Assembly: GCA_035473115.1 (NCBI GenBank) | Contig: DATION010000007.1 | Coordinates: 41,734 to 105,733 of the forward strand | Direction of reading: 5' to 3' | Source of the DNA: Candidatus Udaeobacter sp. | Lineage (GTDB): Bacteria; Patescibacteriota; Patescibacteriia; Magasanikbacterales; GWA2-37-8 | Length of the DNA stretch: 64,000 nucleotides | Shown here: positions 1 to 50,257 of the stretch, one piece after another | Position numbering within the stretch: the first letter of the stretch is position 1 | Layout: the number at the start of each line of letters is the position of its first letter | Position numbers and translations under genes: made by a program | The notes under the pieces: model-generated | Databases searched by the model: none | What the model was told of the DNA's origin: nothing | What the model saw: the letters and a program-made list of their open reading frames with translations, nothing else

Positions 1-897
1 GCCACCGTTGGCACCGTCAGCCAAATCGTTGCCATCGGCAATGACCTGTCCGGCGGTAATGCCAAGCTGAAAGTTGACGATGGAATTGACTTCATCCGGA
101 GTCAGGTCTCGGGTCGCTTGAGCGTGTCCACGAGTTGCGTCATTGGCCTGACGCGTCAGCATGCCTTGGATATCAGTCGCAGACGATGGGCCAGCGATAC
201 CCGTTGGATCGGGAGCGCTGGTGTTCGCTCGGAGCTTGTTCTCGCGGCCGTCCCACATGATCGTGCTGTCGAACTTAAGGTTCGCAGTCGGCAGAGGGCG
301 CCGGAATAGTGACAGCTCCGCAGCGCTTGCAAAATGGTAAGGATCATCGACTGCATCGAGAGCGAATTCGGCGCCAGCTGGAATTGGTAGGCCGACGCGA
401 ATCAACCCCTTGGTCAGCAGCATGCTGAAAGCCTTTTTCCTCTTTCCAAGCGTGGAAAGGTCCGCATTTGGCGAGTTTGACCCGTCATTGGTGCGGAAGA
501 TCGCGCAGAATCCGGAAGTGTCCGTGTCGTTGGCCTCGCCGACTCCTCCGTTGCAGAGCTTGAAAAACAGCGTCGTGAACTTTGGAGTGATGGTCCAGCC
601 AGTGAAGGGAGCGTGACAGCTGACACAGCGTCGTCCGTTTGACCCCAGACTCTGAAAGAACAGGTTGCTTGAGTCGATGGAACCAGACGAACTGACCGAA
701 GCAAAAAACCCATTTGGGCTGGTGATCGGTAAGTGATCTCCAACCTGCTGGGCAAAGTTGCTCACGATCGTAACCATCTGATCGGTCTGACCCATCTGGG
801 GCGTATTGCCGCCACCAGCTTGGGTATCACACCCAGATGATCCGAAAAACAGTCCGAGACCAAACAGCCATGCAAGAACATACGATTTTCTCAACAT
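1..897 (-). CDS. Secreted lipoprotein with CxxCH haem-c motif (RCVSCH) and WDGR motif; putative di-haem cytochrome c peroxidase/MauG-like c-type cytochrome. 5' part only; the ORF runs off the window start.
   Basis: Manual minus-strand translation is open from 897 to position 1. It begins MLRKSYVLAWLFGLGLFFGSSGC (signal peptide plus lipobox-like Cys), then CVSCH and IMWDGRE. GC ~57% against ~38% elsewhere. This frame is absent from the ORF track, presumably because it is truncated at the window edge. Confidence 0.45.
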   Translation of the reverse strand, partial: MLRKSYVLAWLFGLGLFFGSSGCDTQAGGGNTPQMGQTDQMVTIVSNFAQQVGDHLPITSPNGFFASVSSSGSIDSSNLFFQSLGSNGRRCVSCHAPFTGWTITPKFTTLFFKLCNGGVGEANDTDTSGFCAIFRTNDGSNSPNADLSTLGKRKKAFSMLLTKGLIRVGLPIPAGAEFALDAVDDPYHFASAAELSLFRRPLPTANLKFDSTIMWDGRENKLRANTSAPDPTGIAGPSSATDIQGMLTRQANDATRGHAQATRDLTPDEVNSIVNFQLGITAGQVIADGNDLADGANGG

Positions 898-1123
898 TCT
901 GTGTATCCTGCCTTCTTTTTACCGCTCTGTACTCCTGGTTTTACTTCTTACTTTTTTCTCTTGAGGATTCAAGAGTGAGAGGATAGTATCATAAAAGCTA
1001 ATATTAAGCAAAGGTAGGGGTGTGGATGAGTTTTTTATGTTTTATTTTATTTTGACCAGCAAATTATAATATGGTACAAAAGATATTCGCGAGAACGTTG
1101 ACAACAATCAGAGAGGATAAGTC

Positions 1124-1990
1124 ATGACCAGATTTCTCAGGCAGTTGGTAATTATTGGAATGGCATTATTGCTTGTTGGTTCGTGCGGTTCGCACCGAAA
1201 CCATCCAATAAATGTGCACAGGCTTTGCGACCATAATTCTGCGACAGCTCAATTGCGTCCGTCAGAAGCAGCGGTATCACCAGAAAATCTGCTTACATAT
1301 CGAGGCGGTCGGTTGCTAACTTCCGTAGTAGTTCAACCTATTTTTTGGGGATCAGTAGCTTGGAGTAGTCCTCAGATTAACACTGTACCAAAAAAGATCG
1401 CCGATTTTTTTGCCGCGATCTTGAAGAAGGGCAGTGTTTTCAATGCACAGTTAGCTGAGTACAGTCTGTCTGGCCGTCCGCAATTTGGTCCCGGCAGTTT
1501 GCTGGCTAGTGTAGTTGTAAATTCAAGCCCGCCCAAGCGAGTTTCTGATGCGGCGATTCGTACTGCACTTGCTGGCTGGATTCGTCAAGGAGTTGTGGCT
1601 GCCACTCGTCAGCAGACTTTCTATGCCATATATTTGCCGCCCGGAACTGTTTCGGTCAATGGCCGAGAGATGTCTTGCCGTGATTACTGTGGTTATCACG
1701 ATTCGTTTGTAAGTAATGGTGTCAGTGTTTTTTACGCTGTACTGCCGTACCCATCTTGCCAGGGCTGTTTGCCAAGAGTTTCTTTTGAGAGGCTGCTTGA
1801 TCCGGCCAGCGCGCTCATGGTAGTCAGTTCGCATGAGCTGGCCGAAGGACAGACAGATCCAATTCCAGGAGAGGGTTGGTATAACGATATCAATGGAGAA
1901 AATGGAGATTATTGCGTTGGCCAGATACGCCAAGAGGGAAACTTCTTCATCCAAAAAGAATGGTCCAACCGGGCCGGCGCCTGTCTTTAA
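1124..1990 (+). CDS. Hypothetical secreted lipoprotein
   Basis: 288-aa ORF with N-terminal signal and lipobox (LLVGSCGS); no catalytic motif recognised; intermediate GC. Confidence 0.5.
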   Translation: MTRFLRQLVIIGMALLLVGSCGSHRNHPINVHRLCDHNSATAQLRPSEAAVSPENLLTYRGGRLLTSVVVQPIFWGSVAWSSPQINTVPKKIADFFAAILKKGSVFNAQLAEYSLSGRPQFGPGSLLASVVVNSSPPKRVSDAAIRTALAGWIRQGVVAATRQQTFYAIYLPPGTVSVNGREMSCRDYCGYHDSFVSNGVSVFYAVLPYPSCQGCLPRVSFERLLDPASALMVVSSHELAEGQTDPIPGEGWYNDINGENGDYCVGQIRQEGNFFIQKEWSNRAGACL

Positions 1991-2051
1991 AAAGGCGCTA
2001 AATAGTTAGGCTAGTCAAGACGAATCTATCATGGCTAGCAATCGCAGTAGA

Positions 2052-19379: not shown

Positions 19380-20327
19380 ATGTCTTCAGAACCAACGCTT
19401 CGCCAGTCGATAATTAATACTTTGGCTTATTTTGATTTAGCCGATTTTCCTCTTACCAGAGAAGAGCTTTTTTCTTGGTTGTGGCTCCCGCCAGCTTCTC
19501 TAAATTATCCTGAGTTTTTAGCGGCTTTAGATAAGCTAAAACTAGATTATAAATTTGGTTATTATTTTTTGCCCGGACAGGAAAAAATTATGGAAGAACG
19601 TCGGCAGAAATTTTTAATTTCCGCACAAAAATTAAAAATGGCTCGGTTAGCTATTAGAGTTATAAAATCAATTCCGTACCTCCGAGCTGTATTTATCTGT
19701 AACACCGTTGCTTCCGAACAAGCTGATGAAAATAGTGATATTGATTTTTTTATTATCACAGCGGCAAAACGAATCTGGATCGTGCGGTTTTTTACGAATT
19801 TAATTTTGCGCCTCTGCGGTCTGCGCACTTATGGAAAGAAAAATAAGAACAAAATTTGCTTAAGTTTTTATGTAACAGTAGAAAGTTTGAATCTGGTAAA
19901 TTTACGCATAGCCGATGATGATATCCATTTGGCATATTGGCTAAATCAGATGTTGCCGATTTTTGATCCGGATAATCTTTATGCCAAATTTTTGCAGGAA
20001 AATTCTTGGACAAAATATTACCTGCCAAATTTAGCTGCCGATAAAAATGCTTCGTATTTGCCAAAAATTTCGGAATCTTTTCTGGACAAGCTTTGGAAGA
20101 AGGCTTGGGAGAAAATGTGGCAAGGGAAATATGGCGACTTAATTAATAATCAGGTGAAAAAAATTCAATTATTGAAGATGAAATTTTCTGGTAAACCGGC
20201 TGATCACGGTATAGATAAAGGTGTAGTTATATCTGATCAAGTTTTGAAATTCCATGAAAAAGATACCAGGATTCCTTATCGCCAAGCCTGGCAACAAAAA
20301 ATTTATGAACTGGAAAAAAATATCTAA
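19380..20327 (+). CDS. Nucleotidyltransferase-fold protein
   Basis: NTase signature ...SEQADENSDIDFFII (G/S-x(n)-DxD). Confidence 0.45.
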   Translation: MSSEPTLRQSIINTLAYFDLADFPLTREELFSWLWLPPASLNYPEFLAALDKLKLDYKFGYYFLPGQEKIMEERRQKFLISAQKLKMARLAIRVIKSIPYLRAVFICNTVASEQADENSDIDFFIITAAKRIWIVRFFTNLILRLCGLRTYGKKNKNKICLSFYVTVESLNLVNLRIADDDIHLAYWLNQMLPIFDPDNLYAKFLQENSWTKYYLPNLAADKNASYLPKISESFLDKLWKKAWEKMWQGKYGDLINNQVKKIQLLKMKFSGKPADHGIDKGVVISDQVLKFHEKDTRIPYRQAWQQKIYELEKNI

Positions 20328-21720
20328 TTTATTACTATCATTGCTTTTATTCCTCCTGCCTTGGCAAACTAGATATATTTGGCAATCGGGAGAATTAAAC
20401 AAAGGCTACTGGGAGTACGGAACCTTTAGTATCTATGGAACCGAGATTTTGCTCTGGATTATTTTAATTATATTTTTTGTTAATCATTTTTTACGCAAAG
20501 ATTTTCTGGCTAATTTTAAAGAGAAAAGCAATATTTTGCGAAGCGTATTTATTCTGTTTTTACTTACTTTCGGTTTGGCGATGGTTTTTAGTAAAAATTT
20601 CTGGGTCTCTTATTACTTTGTTTTTAAATTTTTGGAAGCCATAGCTTTGTTATCTGTTTTGCTTTGGGAAGAAGAGAAGACAAAGTATAAAATCGCGCTT
20701 TGGCTGGGCGGAGTGGGGCAGGGTATTTTGGCCATTGTTCAATTTTTGACTCAGTATGTTTGGGGAAATAAATGGCTCGGAATGGCCCAGCAGAAAGGCG
20801 AAAACTTAGGAACGAGCGTCATTGAGTTTGCCGATCAAAGATGGCTGCGGGCTTATGGCAGCTTTGGATCGCCAAATTCGTTGGGAATTTATTTGGCAGT
20901 TTTGTTTGTGCTCGGTTTAGTTTTGTACTTAAAAATAGAATCAGCCAGAACAAGAATACTTATTAGTATTGGTCAGTTATTTATTTTATCCGGATTGGTT
21001 TTATCTTTTTCGCGCGGCGCTTGGCTAGCAGGCGGGCTTGGAGCATTATCTTTATTAGTAATTTTAATTAAAGATTGTCATTCCCCGCTTGGGCGGGGTA
21101 GGGGTGGGTTGGAAACGATTCATCAACAATTGAGTATTAGCCAACCCACCCCTGGCCTTGAGGCCTTCCCCGCCCAAGCGGGGAATTCCAAACAGCAGAC
21201 CACCACCTCGCTCGGGAGGACAAACATAAAAGATTTTGCCAAACAAATATTTTTTGCTTTGGCAGTAATTATTTTTTGGCTGGTAATTTTTTATCCGGTA
21301 TTTACAGCCAGGTTTAATCTTAGTAATCGTTTGGAAGCAAAATCAATTACGGAAAGAAAAAGCCAATATATTGAAGCATTATCTTTCATTCAATCAAAGC
21401 CTGCTTTAGGAGTCGGGCCCGGAGCCTATACTTACGCTTTATATAAAAAATATCCAACCTTAGAATCGTGGCAATTCCAGCCGGTGCATAATATTTATTT
21501 ATTAGCTTTGGCAGAAGTGGGTCTGGCTGGCACCATAGCTTTGTTTTTTATCTTTAAAAAATTATTCTTATTAGTGCTAAAAAATAATTATATTTATGTT
21601 CCGGTTCTAGTTGTTTTAGCCGCCGCCGGGATTTTTGATCACTGGTTGTGGAGTATGTATACCGGAGTTTTGTTATGGTGGGTAATTTTTGGTCTAATTA
21701 GCAAAGAAAAATTAAATTAA
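20305..21720 (+). CDS. O-antigen ligase/Wzy-like polytopic membrane protein with an in-frame insertion of a GC-rich palindromic element
   Basis: Many TM helices and the FSRGAWLAGG motif of the O-antigen ligase family. Residues ~CHSPLGRGRGGLETIHQQLSISQPTPGLEAFPAQAGNS are encoded by the palindromic element. Confidence 0.65.
   Translation: MNWKKISNLLLSLLLFLLPWQTRYIWQSGELNKGYWEYGTFSIYGTEILLWIILIIFFVNHFLRKDFLANFKEKSNILRSVFILFLLTFGLAMVFSKNFWVSYYFVFKFLEAIALLSVLLWEEEKTKYKIALWLGGVGQGILAIVQFLTQYVWGNKWLGMAQQKGENLGTSVIEFADQRWLRAYGSFGSPNSLGIYLAVLFVLGLVLYLKIESARTRILISIGQLFILSGLVLSFSRGAWLAGGLGALSLLVILIKDCHSPLGRGRGGLETIHQQLSISQPTPGLEAFPAQAGNSKQQTTTSLGRTNIKDFAKQIFFALAVIIFWLVIFYPVFTARFNLSNRLEAKSITERKSQYIEALSFIQSKPALGVGPGAYTYALYKKYPTLESWQFQPVHNIYLLALAEVGLAGTIALFFIFKKLFLLVLKNNYIYVPVLVVLAAAGIFDHWLWSMYTGVLLWWVIFGLISKEKLN
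21075..21195. repeat. GC-rich palindromic element (RPE-like) inserted in-frame in a CDS
   Basis: Inverted repeats ccccgcttgggcgggg...ccccgcccaagcgggg and taggggtgggttgg/ccaacccacccc, with termini tgtcattcc...ggaattcc; local GC far above the surroundings. Confidence 0.6.
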
Positions 21721-37162: not shown

Positions 37163-37660
37163 CTAGTTGGCATTTTGGAAGCAGGTGAGAGTCGTATCTT
37201 GACTCACCACCATCACCAGTTTGTTGACGAGATTATCGTCACTCCTGGTGATTGTCACCTGACTCATCTCCTTGGCTCCGCTACCGGCGATGCTCAAAGA
37301 GCAAATGCCGTTGTTAGACGACGTCAACGTGACATCGTAGTTCCCGCTCCAGTTGGAGCAGGTCCATTGTCTCGTCATCATCCAGCTGTAGCTGGCACAT
37401 GGATTGGCTTGGGGTGCATCAGGTGCACCGGCGTCGGGGGGCGTCATCGCTGAGCCCGATCCGGAGCCGGTCATCACGCTGCCATTGCCGTCGTCGTCAT
37501 CGCCGCTGGTCGTGCTGTCGGTAGCACAGCCGCTGCTGAATGCCATGGCACAGATGCCGAGGATCAGCACTCCGATCGAGACCACACGTGCCCATGTGTA
37601 GTAGTTGTGGATCTCTTCGGTGGTCTGGTTGCTCGTGCTGTAACCGTTCGGGTTCTTCAT
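37163..37660 (-). CDS. Hypothetical lipoprotein in a GC-rich patch
   Basis: Strong SD GGAGGA 4 nt before the ATG (MKNPNG...); TM/signal then AFSSGC lipobox; Asp/Gly/Ser-rich; ~55% GC. Confidence 0.5.
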   Translation of the reverse strand: MKNPNGYSTSNQTTEEIHNYYTWARVVSIGVLILGICAMAFSSGCATDSTTSGDDDDGNGSVMTGSGSGSAMTPPDAGAPDAPQANPCASYSWMMTRQWTCSNWSGNYDVTLTSSNNGICSLSIAGSGAKEMSQVTITRSDDNLVNKLVMVVSQDTTLTCFQNAN

Positions 37661-37715
37661 CGTATCCTCCTGAGTTTGTGTGCCGGTTGGCACGTTGGTT
37701 GCTATGTCGTTGGTA

Positions 37716-48315: not shown

Positions 48316-49536
48316 CTATTTAACTTTAAAGATTTTCAGAACTTTTTTTAGGGCGCGTTCGGCCGCATCAACATCTTTGGTTGTATTATACAAATAAAAA
48401 CTCATTCTGGCCGTAGCGGTAACGCCAAGACGAGCAGCGAGCGGTTCGGCACAATGCAAGCCAGAGCGAATAGCTATGCCTTCCTCGTTAAAGATAGTGG
48501 CAATATCGTGCGGGTGAACTCCGGATACAGCAAAAGAAAGCACGCCGTTTGTGTCCGTTATTTTTGATGGTGAGAAGATTTTAACACTGGAATATTTTGC
48601 GAATTTTTGTTTGGCGTAAGCCAACAGCTGACGGCTGTGAGTAGAAATATTTTTCAAGCCTATTTTATTCAAGTATTCAATTGCCGCACCAAAAGCAATA
48701 ATATCGGCAATATTTGGCGTGCCAGCTTCAAATTTCCACGGACCGGAGCGATAAGTGGAAGAAAATTCAGCAACAGTTTCCACCATATCTCCGCCATACA
48801 TAAATGGCGGCATCTCTGCCATTAAAGATTGTTTAATGTACAAGATACCCACGCCGGTTGGACCAAGCATTTTGTGGGCGGAAAAAGCTAAGAAGTCGCA
48901 GCCGATATCCCGGATATTGATTGGCGAGTGGCCGACAATTTGCGCGCCGTCAACCAAAACTTTGGTGCCCACAGCCTGCGCCATAGCGGTAATTTTTTTG
49001 ATTGGTGTAATTGTGCCGGTTACATTGGATTGAGCGGTAATACATACCAGTTTTGTTTTTGGTGACAGTAATTGCTGATAAGCTGTTAAATCCAGTGTAT
49101 AATCCGCAGTTAAAGGAATAACTCTTAAAATAGCTTTTTTTTCTTTGGCCAGTTCTTGCCAAGGAACTAAGTTGGCATGGTGTTCCAGAGCGCTAACAAT
49201 AATTTCATCGCCGGCATTAATGTTTTTTTTGCCCCAAGAAGCGGAAACGCAGTTAATCGCTTCCGTGCAATTTTTGGTAAAGATTATTTCTTCTGTTGTT
49301 TTGGCATTAATAAATTTGGCTACTTTTTTTCTGACATCTTCGTAAGCAGCAGTAGCTTCTTCGGAAAGAGTGTGGATACCGCGATGAATGTTGGCATTAC
49401 TGGTAGTGTAGTATTTTTGTAGAGCTTTTAAGACAGCCGTCGGTTTTTGGCTAGTGGAAGCATTATCTAAATAGACTAGCGGTTTGCCGTTAATTTTTCT
49501 TTTTAAAATAGGGAAGTCCTTTTTGATGTTTTTCAT
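48316..49536 (-). CDS. sufS: Cysteine desulfurase SufS
   Basis: PLP-lysine motif SAHKMLGPTGVG; RSGLHCAEP (class II SufS). Confidence 0.9.
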   Translation of the reverse strand: MKNIKKDFPILKRKINGKPLVYLDNASTSQKPTAVLKALQKYYTTSNANIHRGIHTLSEEATAAYEDVRKKVAKFINAKTTEEIIFTKNCTEAINCVSASWGKKNINAGDEIIVSALEHHANLVPWQELAKEKKAILRVIPLTADYTLDLTAYQQLLSPKTKLVCITAQSNVTGTITPIKKITAMAQAVGTKVLVDGAQIVGHSPINIRDIGCDFLAFSAHKMLGPTGVGILYIKQSLMAEMPPFMYGGDMVETVAEFSSTYRSGPWKFEAGTPNIADIIAFGAAIEYLNKIGLKNISTHSRQLLAYAKQKFAKYSSVKIFSPSKITDTNGVLSFAVSGVHPHDIATIFNEEGIAIRSGLHCAEPLAARLGVTATARMSFYLYNTTKDVDAAERALKKVLKIFKVK

Positions 49537-49547
49537 ATATTATAGGT

Positions 49548-49632
49548 TGTCATCCCGAGCGAGCCGTAGCGACGAGGGGTCTATGCTCTAATGATTAGAT
49601 TCCTCACCCTCTTGTGAGAGGGGTTCGGAATG
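49548..49632. repeat. GC-rich structured palindromic element between sufS and sufD, possibly related to the 21075 element
   Basis: Termini tgtcatcccga...tcggaatgaca (11-bp imperfect inverted repeat); internal ccctct-tgtg-agaggg hairpin; GC far above the flanks. Confidence 0.5.
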
Positions 49633-49636
49633 ACAG

Positions 49637-50257
49637 TTATGATTTTGTCTGAGAAAGAAACTCAGTCACAGTCTCACGGATTGTATTTTTTATTTTTTCA
49701 TCGTTGATAGCGTTTAATTCAGTCTCAAAAAAACCTTGCACTAACATCATCCGAGCTTGTGTTTCCGATAAGCCGCGAGAAAGCAGATAGAAAAGAGCTT
49801 CGTCATCGACTTTGCCTACGCTGGCCGCATGACCGGCTTTGACATCGTCTGTTTTAATTTCTAAAAACGGCGCAGTTTTGGCGGAAGCGTTTGGCGACAA
49901 AAGCAAAGTGTGATGAGCAAAATAAGTGTCTGTGCCAGAAGCAGTTTTTTCAATGCTCCACGCGCCTTCAATGGAACAGGAAGAACTGTCAGTTAAAGCG
50001 GAACGAATTCGGGCTTTAATTTGCGTTTTTGGCGCTTGGTGGTTAGCTTCTATTTTTGCCAAAAAAGAATCATTATTTTTTCCTAAAATAAAAAAAATAC
50101 AGCGGCAAACTGCGCCGCGGCCTTCAGTTTTTATAATTAAATGGCGAGTTCCATCCCAGCCTTTAGTGATCAAACCAACAACAGTTAATTCTTCATCATT
50201 TTTTAAAGCAATGGTTTGGTTAGGGATGGTATCGATGAACAAAATTTTTTCAGACAT
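49637..50257 (-). CDS. sufD: Short SufD-like Fe-S assembly protein (206 aa)
   Basis: Operon position between sufB and sufS and a SufBD-like C-terminal beta-helix region; the length (206 aa) is well below a full-length SufD. Confidence 0.6.
   Translation of the reverse strand: MSEKILFIDTIPNQTIALKNDEELTVVGLITKGWDGTRHLIIKTEGRGAVCRCIFFILGKNNDSFLAKIEANHQAPKTQIKARIRSALTDSSSCSIEGAWSIEKTASGTDTYFAHHTLLLSPNASAKTAPFLEIKTDDVKAGHAASVGKVDDEALFYLLSRGLSETQARMMLVQGFFETELNAINDEKIKNTIRETVTEFLSQTKS

What the first reader, a model, noticed from the sequence alone, without database searches (positions are those of the whole stretch)
21075..21195. GC-rich palindromic element inserted in-frame into an O-antigen-ligase-like membrane protein gene (RPE-like behaviour)
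A ~120-bp segment of >60% GC with long imperfect inverted repeats (ccccgcttgggcgggg / ccccgcccaagcgggg) interrupts an otherwise AT-rich CDS without breaking the frame, adding ~55 residues (…GRGRGGLETIHQQLSISQPTPGLEAFPAQAGNS…). This mirrors the Rickettsia palindromic elements that colonise coding regions. Its terminal motif tgtcattcc / ggaattcc resembles the termini of the intergenic element at 49548.
Basis: seen in the sequence. Interest (0 to 1): 0.6.

Follow-up and report, generated by a model that had tools for sequence, protein, structure and literature searches.

The report
RPE-like palindromic repeat inside ligase gene
A 147-base GC-rich hairpin repeat, of the same class as the Rickettsia palindromic elements and REP sequences, sits in frame in a loop of a membrane O-antigen-ligase-family gene of a Patescibacteria (CPR) bacterium; this extends a known kind of selfish DNA to a new phylum but is not a new kind of element.

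Summary
Window 21080-21186 is a long imperfect hairpin (z = -9.4) with arms of 70% GC, inside a 35% GC Wzy_C gene, and the frame stays open. Against orthologues the insertion is 21076-21222, which is 147 nt or 49 codons. AlphaFold2 models it as a low-confidence coil between two helices.

It is not a native loop. Most orthologues lack it. 34 of 113 carry other palindromic inserts at the same loop, and 24 of 113 at a second loop.

The arm is a dispersed repeat. It occurs in 91 loci in about 14 Patescibacteria MAGs and in at least 120 metagenome contigs. It is found either as a solitary 33-nt unit or as an inverted dimer. About 30% of copies lie in frame in unrelated housekeeping genes (UvrA, UvrD, AddA, LeuRS, TruB, TGT, Dus, RNase J, MnmA).

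I saw no target-site duplication. One clean filled/empty pair differs by exactly the 33-mer. Copies often sit in the apical loop of TGTC...GACA hairpin repeats. Those outer repeats match the CGTC-tagged REP superfamily, which includes Rickettsia RPE-4/-6 and Neisseria dRS3.

I rate it a new family of a known kind in a new phylum. The mobilising enzyme is unknown.

The parts
20254..21720 (+). Host gene: O-antigen ligase/polymerase family (Wzy_C) membrane protein, 488 aa, intact ORF
   Evidence: ORF list. Pfam PF04932, E = 1e-12. 580 homologues in Patescibacteria with conserved synteny.
21076..21222 (+). Whole insertion relative to empty-site orthologues: 147 nt = codons 275-323 (CHSPLGRGRGG...SLGRT)
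   Evidence: Protein and DNA alignment with orthologues that lack it (L097, L103) and with those that carry other elements. AlphaFold2: residues 277-318 are coil, with pLDDT mostly around or below 50 (segments 280-297 and 308-318 below 50), between helices 254-276 and 319-345.
21076..21079 (+). TGTC tetranucleotide directly 5' of the left arm (a tag of the CGTC/TGTC type)
   Evidence: Sequence. The same TGTC-ATTCCCCGC junction occurs in L091 (L090 has only GTC-ATTCCCCGC). The tag is defined in PMC3733652.
21080..21112 (+). Left arm: the 33-nt unit ATTCCCCGCTTGGGCGGGGTAGGGGTGGGTTGG. It has its own hairpin, CCCCGC-TTGG-GCGGGG (21083-21098), followed by a GTAG and a G-rich tail.
   Evidence: Identical or nearly identical in about 100 copies from other genomes, and about 60 of them occur as this unit alone. 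It folds on its own: -8.2 kcal/mol, z = -3.4. 32 of 33 positions are identical in L001.
21113..21140 (+). Variable apical loop of the dimer (28 nt)
   Evidence: Only 44% identical to L001 and unalignable among copies; length 12-40 nt.
21141..21186 (+). Right arm: inverted copy of the unit carrying an extra mini-hairpin GGCC-TTGA-GGCC (21154-21165). The unit hairpin CCCCGC-CCAA-GCGGGG is at 21168-21183.
   Evidence: The same asymmetry is conserved in 34 of 37 aligned full copies. Identical to L001 at 47 of 47 positions (21140-21186 compared).
21187..21222 (+). Remnant of the right half of a second, outer repeat of the TGTC...GACA type (…ACAGCAGA…CCTCGCTCGGGAGGACA)
   Evidence: Aligns with the intact right arm CCTCGCTCGGGATGACA in L001 and with the right ends of outer elements in L091 and L084.
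49548..49637 (.). Separate intergenic copy of the outer repeat type (TGTCATCCCGAGCG...TTCGGAATGACA). It fills the spacer between two minus-strand genes.
   Evidence: Sequence, ORFs, fold. Same family as L084:65-183.

Best explanation
The segment is a compound insertion of selfish REP/RPE-class palindromic repeats, not native coding sequence.

The core (21080-21186) is an inverted dimer of a 33-nt hairpin unit. A 36-nt remnant of a second repeat, tagged TGTC...GACA, follows it. Together they add exactly 49 codons to a permissive loop between two helices of a Wzy_C membrane protein, and they are most likely translated as a disordered loop.

Shown:
- The unit is a dispersed multi-copy repeat in related Patescibacteria.
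- It occurs solo and as inverted dimers.
- It lies in frame in many unrelated genes.
- I saw no target-site duplication at the junctions I read.
- It often sits in the apical loop of other hairpin repeats.

Inferred:
- The unit is non-autonomous DNA moved in trans by a structure-specific enzyme that acts on single-stranded hairpins. This could be of the kind that moves REP/REPIN elements, or an unknown one, as for all CGTC-type repeats. I give this step about 0.35.
- Inside genes, only copies that are stop-free and a multiple of three long survive. The unit is 33 nt and open in 5 of 6 frames.
- The ligase loop is a hot spot because an older palindromic repeat there offers a target, or a recombination partner, for newcomers.
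For: Orthologues lack it or carry other elements.
- Most have a short loop. 34 of 113 have at least 7 extra residues at this loop and 24 of 113 at a second loop. Typical inserts begin CHSE/VIPAKAGIQ/LSFPPQAG and end GMT/RND.
- In an NJ tree the window groups with P0002 and P0004, which carry a plain TGTC...GACA element at the same site.

Multi-copy.
- The 22-nt arm gave 95 genome loci, 91 of them in about 14 Patescibacteria MAGs, with up to about 33 copies per MAG. It also gave at least 120 metagenome contigs.

In frame in unrelated genes.
- About 29 of 100 copies have at least 60 open codons on both sides, and 5 of 6 frames are used.
- Hosts are Wzy_C, AddA-like, UvrD, UvrA, LeuRS, TruB, transketolase, GT2, M16 peptidase, RNase J, sulfatase, WecG, Dus and TGT, and MnmA by reading.

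The arms evolve far more slowly than the host gene.
- Between the window and L001 the arms are 79/80 identical, the loop 44%, and the flanking CDS 65-71%.

The unit behaves as an insertion unit.
- L161 and L195 carry the 33-mer 6 nt from a tRNA-Arg. L119 lacks exactly it, with no duplication.
- In L066 the 33-mer sits in the apical loop of an outer element that has four empty relatives.

Nesting.
- 15 of 39 full copies have GTCAT or ATGAC within about 30 nt, against 2.3% background.

The outer type is a real family.
- 76 GTCAT...ATGAC pairs were found against 4.8 in shuffles.

Loop location.
- AlphaFold2 gives coil for residues 277-318, pLDDT mostly about 50 or lower.

Literature.
- CGTC/TGTC-tagged REPs include RPE-4/-6 and dRS3. 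They occur inside uvrA, uvrD, recB, tRNA-synthetase and truB genes and have no associated transposase.
- R. conorii dimers encode ...LDSRFRGND, the same peptide as the P0025 insert.
Against: - Only one copy of the inner family lies in the 64-kb window, and the rest of the host genome was not available.
- No mobilising enzyme was found. A crude HUH...Y motif scan of about 1.3 Mb of flanks gave nothing.
- The polarity of the one clean filled/empty pair (insertion or precise loss) is not known.
- Translation of the insert is inferred from frame conservation only.
- The arm was found with an exact 22-26-nt pattern, so the conservation of that part among the fetched copies is partly ascertainment. 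The L001 comparison is free of this bias.
- Covariation is weak: only 2 of the 30 predicted pairs show a two-sided change (the main one in 9 sequences), because the arms hardly vary.
Confidence: 0.78

Rival explanations
1. Copies spread and turn over mainly by recombination or gene conversion between dispersed copies (cassette exchange at sites that are already occupied), not by transposition.
For: - At one orthologous GT2 site, L037 has the 33-mer where L015 has a TGTC-type arm of similar length.
- In the ligase loop the right junction is at the same codon in all filled orthologues, although the elements differ.
- Hybrid dimers exist with one CCCCGC arm and one CCCTCC arm (L017, L047).
- The central loop is inverted in L010 and L076 relative to L014, as expected from recombination between the arms.
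- Arms are 79/80 identical across hosts that are 65-71% identical.
Against: Gene conversion cannot create copies at sites that were empty. Copies lie in more than 15 unrelated genes and next to a tRNA, and one clean empty site exists. The short conserved ends give little homology.
Confidence: 0.25
2. The unit is a functional cis element kept by selection: a binding site for a host protein, an mRNA-stabilising or terminator hairpin, or a G-quadruplex. Its spread is a by-product.
For: - The 33-mer is very strongly conserved across species, including at the same mnmA site in three genomes whose flanks differ by about 25%.
- The left arm holds the four-run G motif GGGCGGGGTAGGGGTGGG (read from the sequence).
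- 10 of 37 copies have a T:A to T:G change that keeps pairing only in a top-strand RNA.
- Many copies sit at gene ends.
Against: - Both orientations and 5 of 6 frames are used inside genes.
- Copy number varies from about 1 to more than 30 between related genomes.
- There is no Rfam family.
- The published view of CGTC/GTAG repeats is that uneven distribution argues against a general function.
Confidence: 0.15
3. It is a classical miniature inverted-repeat transposable element derived from a DDE insertion sequence.
For: It has terminal inverted repeats, a size of about 90-150 nt and no coding capacity.
Against: - No target-site duplication was seen at any junction I read, including the filled/empty pair.
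- Solitary 33-nt units are as common as dimers.
- No long repeat or insertion sequence with the same ends was found among 95 genome loci.
Confidence: 0.07
4. The segment is removed or bypassed at the RNA or translation level and never appears in the protein.
For: A very stable hairpin in the mRNA. Precedents exist in mitochondria (my own knowledge).
Against: Every intragenic copy examined keeps the frame and is free of stops. That would be unnecessary if the segment were skipped. The 33-nt unit and the 147-nt insert are multiples of three.
Confidence: 0.03
5. It is a native, lineage-specific GC-rich loop of the ligase.
For: None beyond the open frame.
Against: It is absent from most orthologues. 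The same DNA occurs in unrelated genes and in intergenic DNA of other genomes.
Confidence: 0.01

Closest known systems
Rickettsia palindromic elements (RPE), in particular RPE-4 and RPE-6, which are CGTC-tagged REPs of R. conorii (PMC3733652)
   Same: - Short GC-richer palindromes in an AT-rich reduced genome.
- Inserted in frame in many unrelated, apparently functional genes, including DNA-repair, tRNA-modification and synthetase genes.
- Singles and dimers both occur.
- No known transposase.
- Related inserts in the same ligase family encode the very peptide ...LDSRFRGND listed for R. conorii dimers.
   Different: - A different phylum (Patescibacteria).
- The inner 33-nt unit has a G-rich 14-nt tail and usually no CGTC tag.
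- Sequence relatedness of the inner unit to any RPE was not tested.
CGTC/TGTC-tagged REP superfamily, including Neisseria dRS3 (ATTCCC-N8-GGGAAT)
   Same: - The stem starts ATTCC, is 8 bp long, and the loop is 4 nt.
- Inverted dimers predominate, and intragenic units exist.
- Insertion inside other palindromes is reported for some families.
- The outer elements here (49548, L078, L073, L102, L027) fit tag, stem, loop and CCA tail.
   Different: - Reported in 5 phyla, not in Patescibacteria.
- The inner family mostly lacks the tag and the CCA tail, and its dimers enclose a further hairpin.
REP/REPIN elements mobilised by RAYT tyrosine transposases
   Same: A hairpin unit of 20-40 nt found as singlets and as inverted doublets that fold into one long hairpin; no target duplication; a GTAG next to a stem (21098-21101).
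   Different: - About 30% of copies are intragenic, whereas REPINs are nearly all extragenic.
- No RAYT-like gene was seen in 1.3 Mb of flanks (crude test).
- The singlet itself appears to be an insertion unit.
Bacterial MITEs (Correia/NEMIS, Coxiella QMITE)
   Same: Small non-coding inverted-repeat elements that can make in-frame fusions.
   Different: No target-site duplication, no TA ends and no parent insertion sequence found.
Mobile GC clusters and double-hairpin elements of AT-rich fungal mitochondrial genomes (my own knowledge, not checked here)
   Same: GC-rich hairpins that invade AT-rich genomes, including coding regions.
   Different: Organellar elements with no sequence relation; named only as an analogy.

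Membership tests
CGTC/TGTC-tagged REP superfamily (PMC3733652) | Unpaired terminal tetranucleotide CGTC (or TGTC/CCTC) | tested here: inconclusive
   The window copy has TGTC at 21076-21079, and the 49548 element has TGTC...GACA. Across about 100 copies of the inner unit only about 3 have GTC directly 5'.
CGTC/TGTC-tagged REP superfamily (PMC3733652) | Stem of 8-9 bp whose first positions are A-T pairs; loop of 4-5 nt | tested here: met
   Right arm: TTCCCCGC-CCAA-GCGGGGAA, 8 bp with a 4-nt loop. Left arm: 6 bp plus one T-A pair, loop TTGG. L099 carries TGTC-ATTCCCGC-CGCAA-GCGGGAAT-GACA.
CGTC/TGTC-tagged REP superfamily (PMC3733652) | Three-nt tail, consensus CCA | tested here: not met
   The inner unit is followed by TAGGGGTGGGTTGG, not CCA. 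Outer-type dimers L078, L073, L102 and L027 do have CCA.
CGTC/TGTC-tagged REP superfamily (PMC3733652) | Mostly inverted (head-to-head) dimers; intragenic units occur; no linked transposase | tested here: met
   39 dimers and about 60 singlets. About 29 copies are intragenic. No transposase-like motif was found in the flanks (a weak test).
Rickettsia palindromic elements | The same palindromic repeat inserted in frame in many unrelated ORFs | tested here: met
Rickettsia palindromic elements | Sequence homology to a named RPE family | not tested
   No RPE consensus was available to align. The only link is the shared LDSRFRGND peptide of a related insert.
REPIN/RAYT system | Singlets plus inverted doublets that form one long hairpin | tested here: met
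REPIN/RAYT system | A single-copy RAYT (Y1 HUH transposase) gene flanked by the repeats | tested here: inconclusive
   A regex for HUH...Y motifs gave 0 candidates in 1.3 Mb around copies. Whole genomes were not searched and no profile search was run.
REPIN/RAYT system | Almost exclusively extragenic | tested here: not met
   About 29% of copies lie inside long ORFs.
DDE-type MITE | Terminal inverted repeats flanked by a target-site duplication | tested here: not met
   Inverted repeats are present. No duplication was seen at any junction I read by eye, nor at the filled/empty pair.
DDE-type MITE | A parent insertion sequence with the same ends | tested here: inconclusive
   No long repeat is shared among loci of one MAG, but only flanks of about 8 kb were held.

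The most novel reading that the evidence does not exclude
Patescibacteria may host a still-active system of transposase-less hairpin repeats. Its basic mobile unit would be a 33-nt, 11-codon cassette that inserts into, and swaps at, the loops of other hairpins and protein linkers.

Copies are near-identical across species, and filled/empty and swapped sites can be found in groundwater time-series metagenomes. These genomes are small. Together this could make it possible to identify the long-missing enzyme that moves CGTC-type repeats and RPEs.
Probability: 0.2. Interest if true: 0.7.

Novelty: new member of a known kind. Interest (0 to 1): 0.45.

Why it matters
Palindromic repeats that colonise coding regions are known from Rickettsia and from scattered REP families. 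How the CGTC-type ones move is still unknown.

This shows that the same class is abundant in Patescibacteria. It decorates the same kinds of proteins (UvrA, UvrD, RecB-like, tRNA synthetases, TruB). It also repeatedly remodels two loops of a cell-envelope enzyme.

In practice it explains length variation and odd low-complexity loops in CPR proteins, spurious small ORFs, and probably some contig breaks in CPR MAGs. It also offers a small-genome setting in which to look for the mobilising enzyme.

Tried and rejected
- Rfam search of 20900-21400 at E up to 10: only sub-threshold miRNA-type hairpin hits and a CRISPR-DR10 hit at E = 4.8. No family.
- Peptide search with the 49-aa insert: the word-indexed search found no candidate. 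The exhaustive HMMER search gave one weak hit. These short, biased peptides are not usable for counting host proteins, so I used the DNA pattern plus ORF context instead.
- Viral contigs: no match to the arm.
- Literature string searches for the arm and for GTCATTCCGAGCG: no paper. No paper links these repeats to Patescibacteria.
- Search for a RAYT-like gene by HUH...Y regex in all fetched DNA: nothing.
- Search for insertion-sequence-like long repeats among loci: only orthologous matches between MAGs.
- LeuRS filled/empty comparison (L041, L020, window): not clean, because the loop is variable and L020 has a large extra domain.
- Covariation test: the arms are nearly invariant, so it says little.
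- The four Oscillospiraceae loci share the 22-mer in a different, GC-rich repeat. I set them aside as probably unrelated.
Full report
**1. The observation.**
Window 21075-21191 holds the strongest inverted repeat of the whole 64 kb. The outer arms are 28 nt at 89% and the inner arms 13 nt at 100%. The motif CCCCGCTTGGGCGGGG and its reverse complement occur at 21083-21098 and 21168-21183 and have no other close match in the window.

The strand folds into one long hairpin with a small side hairpin. As RNA it is -81.9 kcal/mol, z = -9.4. As DNA z = -8.4.

The element lies inside ORF 20254-21720 (+), 488 aa, Pfam Wzy_C. GC is 57% for 21075-21195 and 70% in the arms, against 34-37% in the flanking CDS. 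No Rfam family matches.

**2. It is an insertion.**
The gene has hundreds of homologues in Patescibacteria. The ones whose DNA I fetched share the order YidC-PRC-x-Wzy_C-x-GroES-GroEL, so they are orthologues.

Most orthologues have a short loop here (…LIFFKQRQWLQSFGKQ…). The window has 49 extra residues, codons 275-323, which is 21076-21222 or 147 nt.

AlphaFold2 (mean pLDDT 70.5) models residues 277-318 as coil, with pLDDT mostly about 50 or lower, between helices 254-276 and 319-345.

Among 113 aligned orthologues, 34 have at least 7 extra residues at this loop and 24 at a second loop. The inserts differ in sequence. Typical ones begin CHSE…, VIPAKAGIQ…, VILS… or LSFPPQAG… and end …GMT, …RMT or …RND. 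At the DNA level these correspond to GTCAT(T/C)CC… and …GGAATGAC(A).

In a neighbour-joining tree the window groups with P0002 and P0004. Both carry a plain TGTC…GACA element at the same place. P0001, which shares the window's inner hairpin, is not its sister.

**3. Anatomy of the window insert.**

| Part | Coordinates |
|---|---|
| TGTC tag | 21076-21079 |
| Left arm, the 33-nt unit ATTCCCCGCTTGGGCGGGGTAGGGGTGGGTTGG | 21080-21112 |
| Variable loop | 21113-21140 |
| Right arm, an inverted unit with an extra GGCC-TTGA-GGCC mini-hairpin | 21141-21186 |
| Remnant ending CCTCGCTCGGGAGGACA | 21187-21222 |

The remnant aligns with the intact right end CCTCGCTCGGGATGACA in L001 and with the right ends of outer elements elsewhere. 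The insert is therefore compound.

**4. The unit is a dispersed repeat.**
A scan of one genome per species with the 22-nt arm gave 95 loci. Of these, 91 lie in about 14 MAGs.
- H41-bin286_1: about 33 copies.
- SRP119689_co1_192: 15 copies.
- ERP119705_co20_215: 13 copies.
- ERP119705_co13_685: 10 copies.
- Baikal-deep-G194: 8 copies.
- H51-bin093_1: 6 copies.
- Others: fewer.

Several of these MAGs are labelled Gammaproteobacteria. However, some of their loci (L020, L060) show homology to the window, L020 over two neighbouring segments, and some are 78-84% identical in DNA to Patescibacteria MAGs or to one another. The label is doubtful.

Viral contigs gave none. These counts use exact matches and are lower bounds. 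In the window itself there is one copy of this family plus one copy of the outer type.

**5. Two forms.**
About 60 copies are the solitary 33-mer. 39 are dimers: unit, a loop of 12-40 nt, then the inverted unit. 34 of the 37 aligned dimers have the same mini-hairpin in the right arm.

Hybrid dimers occur in which one arm has CCCTCC-TCGG-GGAGGG in place of CCCCGC-TTGG-GCGGGG (L017, L047). This keeps each arm's own hairpin but not the long-range pairing. In L010 and L076 the central loop is inverted relative to L014.

**6. Behaviour in genes.**
About 29 of 100 copies have at least 60 open codons on both sides. Five of the six frames are used, and the sixth contains TAG.

Host proteins are Wzy_C (five loci in all, counting the window and L001; three), AddA-like helicase-nuclease, UvrD, UvrA, LeuRS, TruB, transketolase, a GT2 glycosyltransferase, an M16 peptidase, DUF4012, RNase J, a sulfatase, WecG, Dus and TGT. 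MnmA is hit at the same C-terminal site in three genomes, by my reading of the sequence. UvrA in L084/L217 carries two different repeat inserts.

**7. Junctions.**
I saw no target-site duplication at any junction I read.

A search with joined flanks found one clean filled/empty set. L161 and L195 carry the 33-mer 6 nt from the 5' end of tRNA-Arg(CCG). L119, 85% identical in the flanks, lacks exactly it.

In L066 the 33-mer sits in the apical loop of an outer TGTC…GACA hairpin whose four relatives are empty. 15 of 39 dimers have GTCAT or ATGAC within about 30 nt, against a 2.3% background.

At an orthologous site in a GT2 gene, L037 has the 33-mer where L015 has a TGTC-type arm of similar length.

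**8. Conservation.**
Between the window and L001 the arms are 79/80 identical, the loop 44%, the outer remnant 51% and the flanking CDS 65-71%. L001 was found through the host protein, so this comparison carries no pattern bias.

Two readings are possible. Either the same element arrived independently at both sites, which fits the tree, or the arms are held constant by selection or by conversion.

**9. What is known.**
Di Nocera et al. 2013 (PMC3733652) sorted short palindromic repeats into GTAG- and CGTC-tagged superfamilies. They describe CGTC repeats as follows:
- The tag is CGTC, often TGTC.
- Stems are 8-9 bp and start with A-T pairs.
- Loops are 4-5 nt, with a CCA tail.
- Most copies are inverted dimers.
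- They have no linked transposase.
- They include Neisseria dRS3 and R. conorii RPE-4/-6.
- Some families are inserted within other palindromes.
- Intragenic copies lie in uvrA, uvrB, uvrD, recB, polA, tRNA-synthetase and truB genes.

Their table lists …LDSRFRGND for R. conorii dimers. The P0025 ligase orthologue has …VIPAKAGIQSPVNLDSRFRGND….

In the DNA I fetched, GTCAT…ATGAC pairs number 76 against 4.8 in shuffles. Several fit the published description fully (L078, L073, L102, L027).

The five phyla listed in that paper do not include Patescibacteria. I found no paper that reports such repeats there.

**10. Interpretation.**
The finding is real and the RPE-like reading is right. The inner unit shares the ATTCC-stem-loop core of CGTC repeats, but it mostly lacks the tag and the CCA tail and has a G-rich tail. 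I therefore treat it as a new family of the REP/RPE class, not as a proven member of CGTC-1 to -4.

The mechanism is inferred. The following features point to a hairpin- or single-strand-specific process rather than a DDE transposase:
- no target duplication;
- both singlets and inverted dimers;
- insertion in hairpin loops;
- a 33-nt unit.

Recombination between copies probably adds to turnover at occupied sites. No enzyme was found, but only the flanks of copies were searched, and only with a crude motif.

Noticed in passing
window 49548-49637: An intergenic TGTC...GACA palindromic repeat fills the whole 100-nt spacer between two minus-strand genes (ends at 49536 and 49637). It belongs to the same family as L084:65-183 and to the outer type whose remnant lies at 21187-21222.
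   Followed up: partly
A3 (113 Wzy_C orthologues); L100:1314-1453 and 1851-1994: Two loops of this ligase family are hot spots. 34 of 113 orthologues carry inserts at one loop and 24 of 113 at the other, and the inserts are of many repeat types. P0017 (L100) has the same element in both loops of one gene. The right junction at the second loop is at the same codon in all filled orthologues.
   Followed up: partly
L037:3946-3978 versus L015:~1440-1480: At one orthologous site in a GT2 glycosyltransferase gene, one genome has the 33-mer and the other has a TGTC-type arm of similar length. One repeat module appears to have replaced another.
   Followed up: partly
L161:1214-1246, L195, L119:~2350: The 33-mer lies 6 nt upstream of tRNA-Arg(CCG) in two contigs and is exactly absent in a third. 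Its effect on tRNA transcription is unknown.
   Followed up: partly
L084/L217 UvrA ORF (L217:2171-5341): One UvrA gene carries two different repeat inserts (…NSPLGRGRGGL…AQAGN… and …VIARSEATKQS…). This echoes the dual REP inserts in uvrA reported for other phyla. DNA-repair and tRNA-modification genes recur among the hosts.
   Followed up: no
window 21091-21108 and all left arms: The unit contains four G runs (GGGCGGGGTAGGGGTGGG), a textbook G-quadruplex motif, in a genome of 40% GC.
   Followed up: no
window 21082-21101: From memory, the unit's hairpin TTCCCCGC-N4-GCGGGG-TA resembles the hairpin of type I-E CRISPR repeats (…TTCCCCGCGCCAGCGGGGATAAACCG). Rfam gave only a sub-threshold CRISPR-DR10 hit (13.7 bits, E = 4.8). 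This is a lead, not a result.
   Followed up: no
L010:652-740, L076:364-472 versus L014:68-156: The central loop of the dimer is inverted in some copies while the two unequal arms keep their order (a flip-flop arrangement).
   Followed up: no
L017:880-945, L047:~962-1060: Hybrid dimers pair a CCCCGC-type arm with a CCCTCC-TCGG-GGAGGG-type arm. The arm hairpin changes on both sides of its stem.
   Followed up: no
L002-L096, records CAYIHE, CAZXML, CAYHHR and others: MAGs deposited as 'uncultured Gammaproteobacteria' have loci homologous to this Patescibacteria window (L020, L060) or 78-84% identical in DNA to Patescibacteria MAGs or to one another. The taxonomic label is probably wrong.
   Followed up: partly
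L030, L040, L042, L093 (Oscillospiraceae MAG): The same 22-mer occurs in a different, GC-rich repeat (GCCTTCCCCGCTTGGGCGGGGAAGGGTAGGGATGAGG…) that recurs about 600 nt apart. It is probably unrelated.
   Followed up: no
window 1-2000: The first 2 kb have 50% GC against about 39% for the rest of the window, and there is no ORF of at least 120 aa before 1124. This could be foreign DNA or a contig-end problem.
   Followed up: no
window 37406-37533: A 128-nt GC-rich stretch lies inside a minus-strand ORF (37163-37693). It encodes a low-complexity linker (…TSGDDDDGNGSVMTGSGSGSAMTPPDAGAPDAPQ…) and is not a palindromic repeat.
   Followed up: partly
window 1-64000: ARAGORN found no tRNA gene in the 64 kb.
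   Followed up: no
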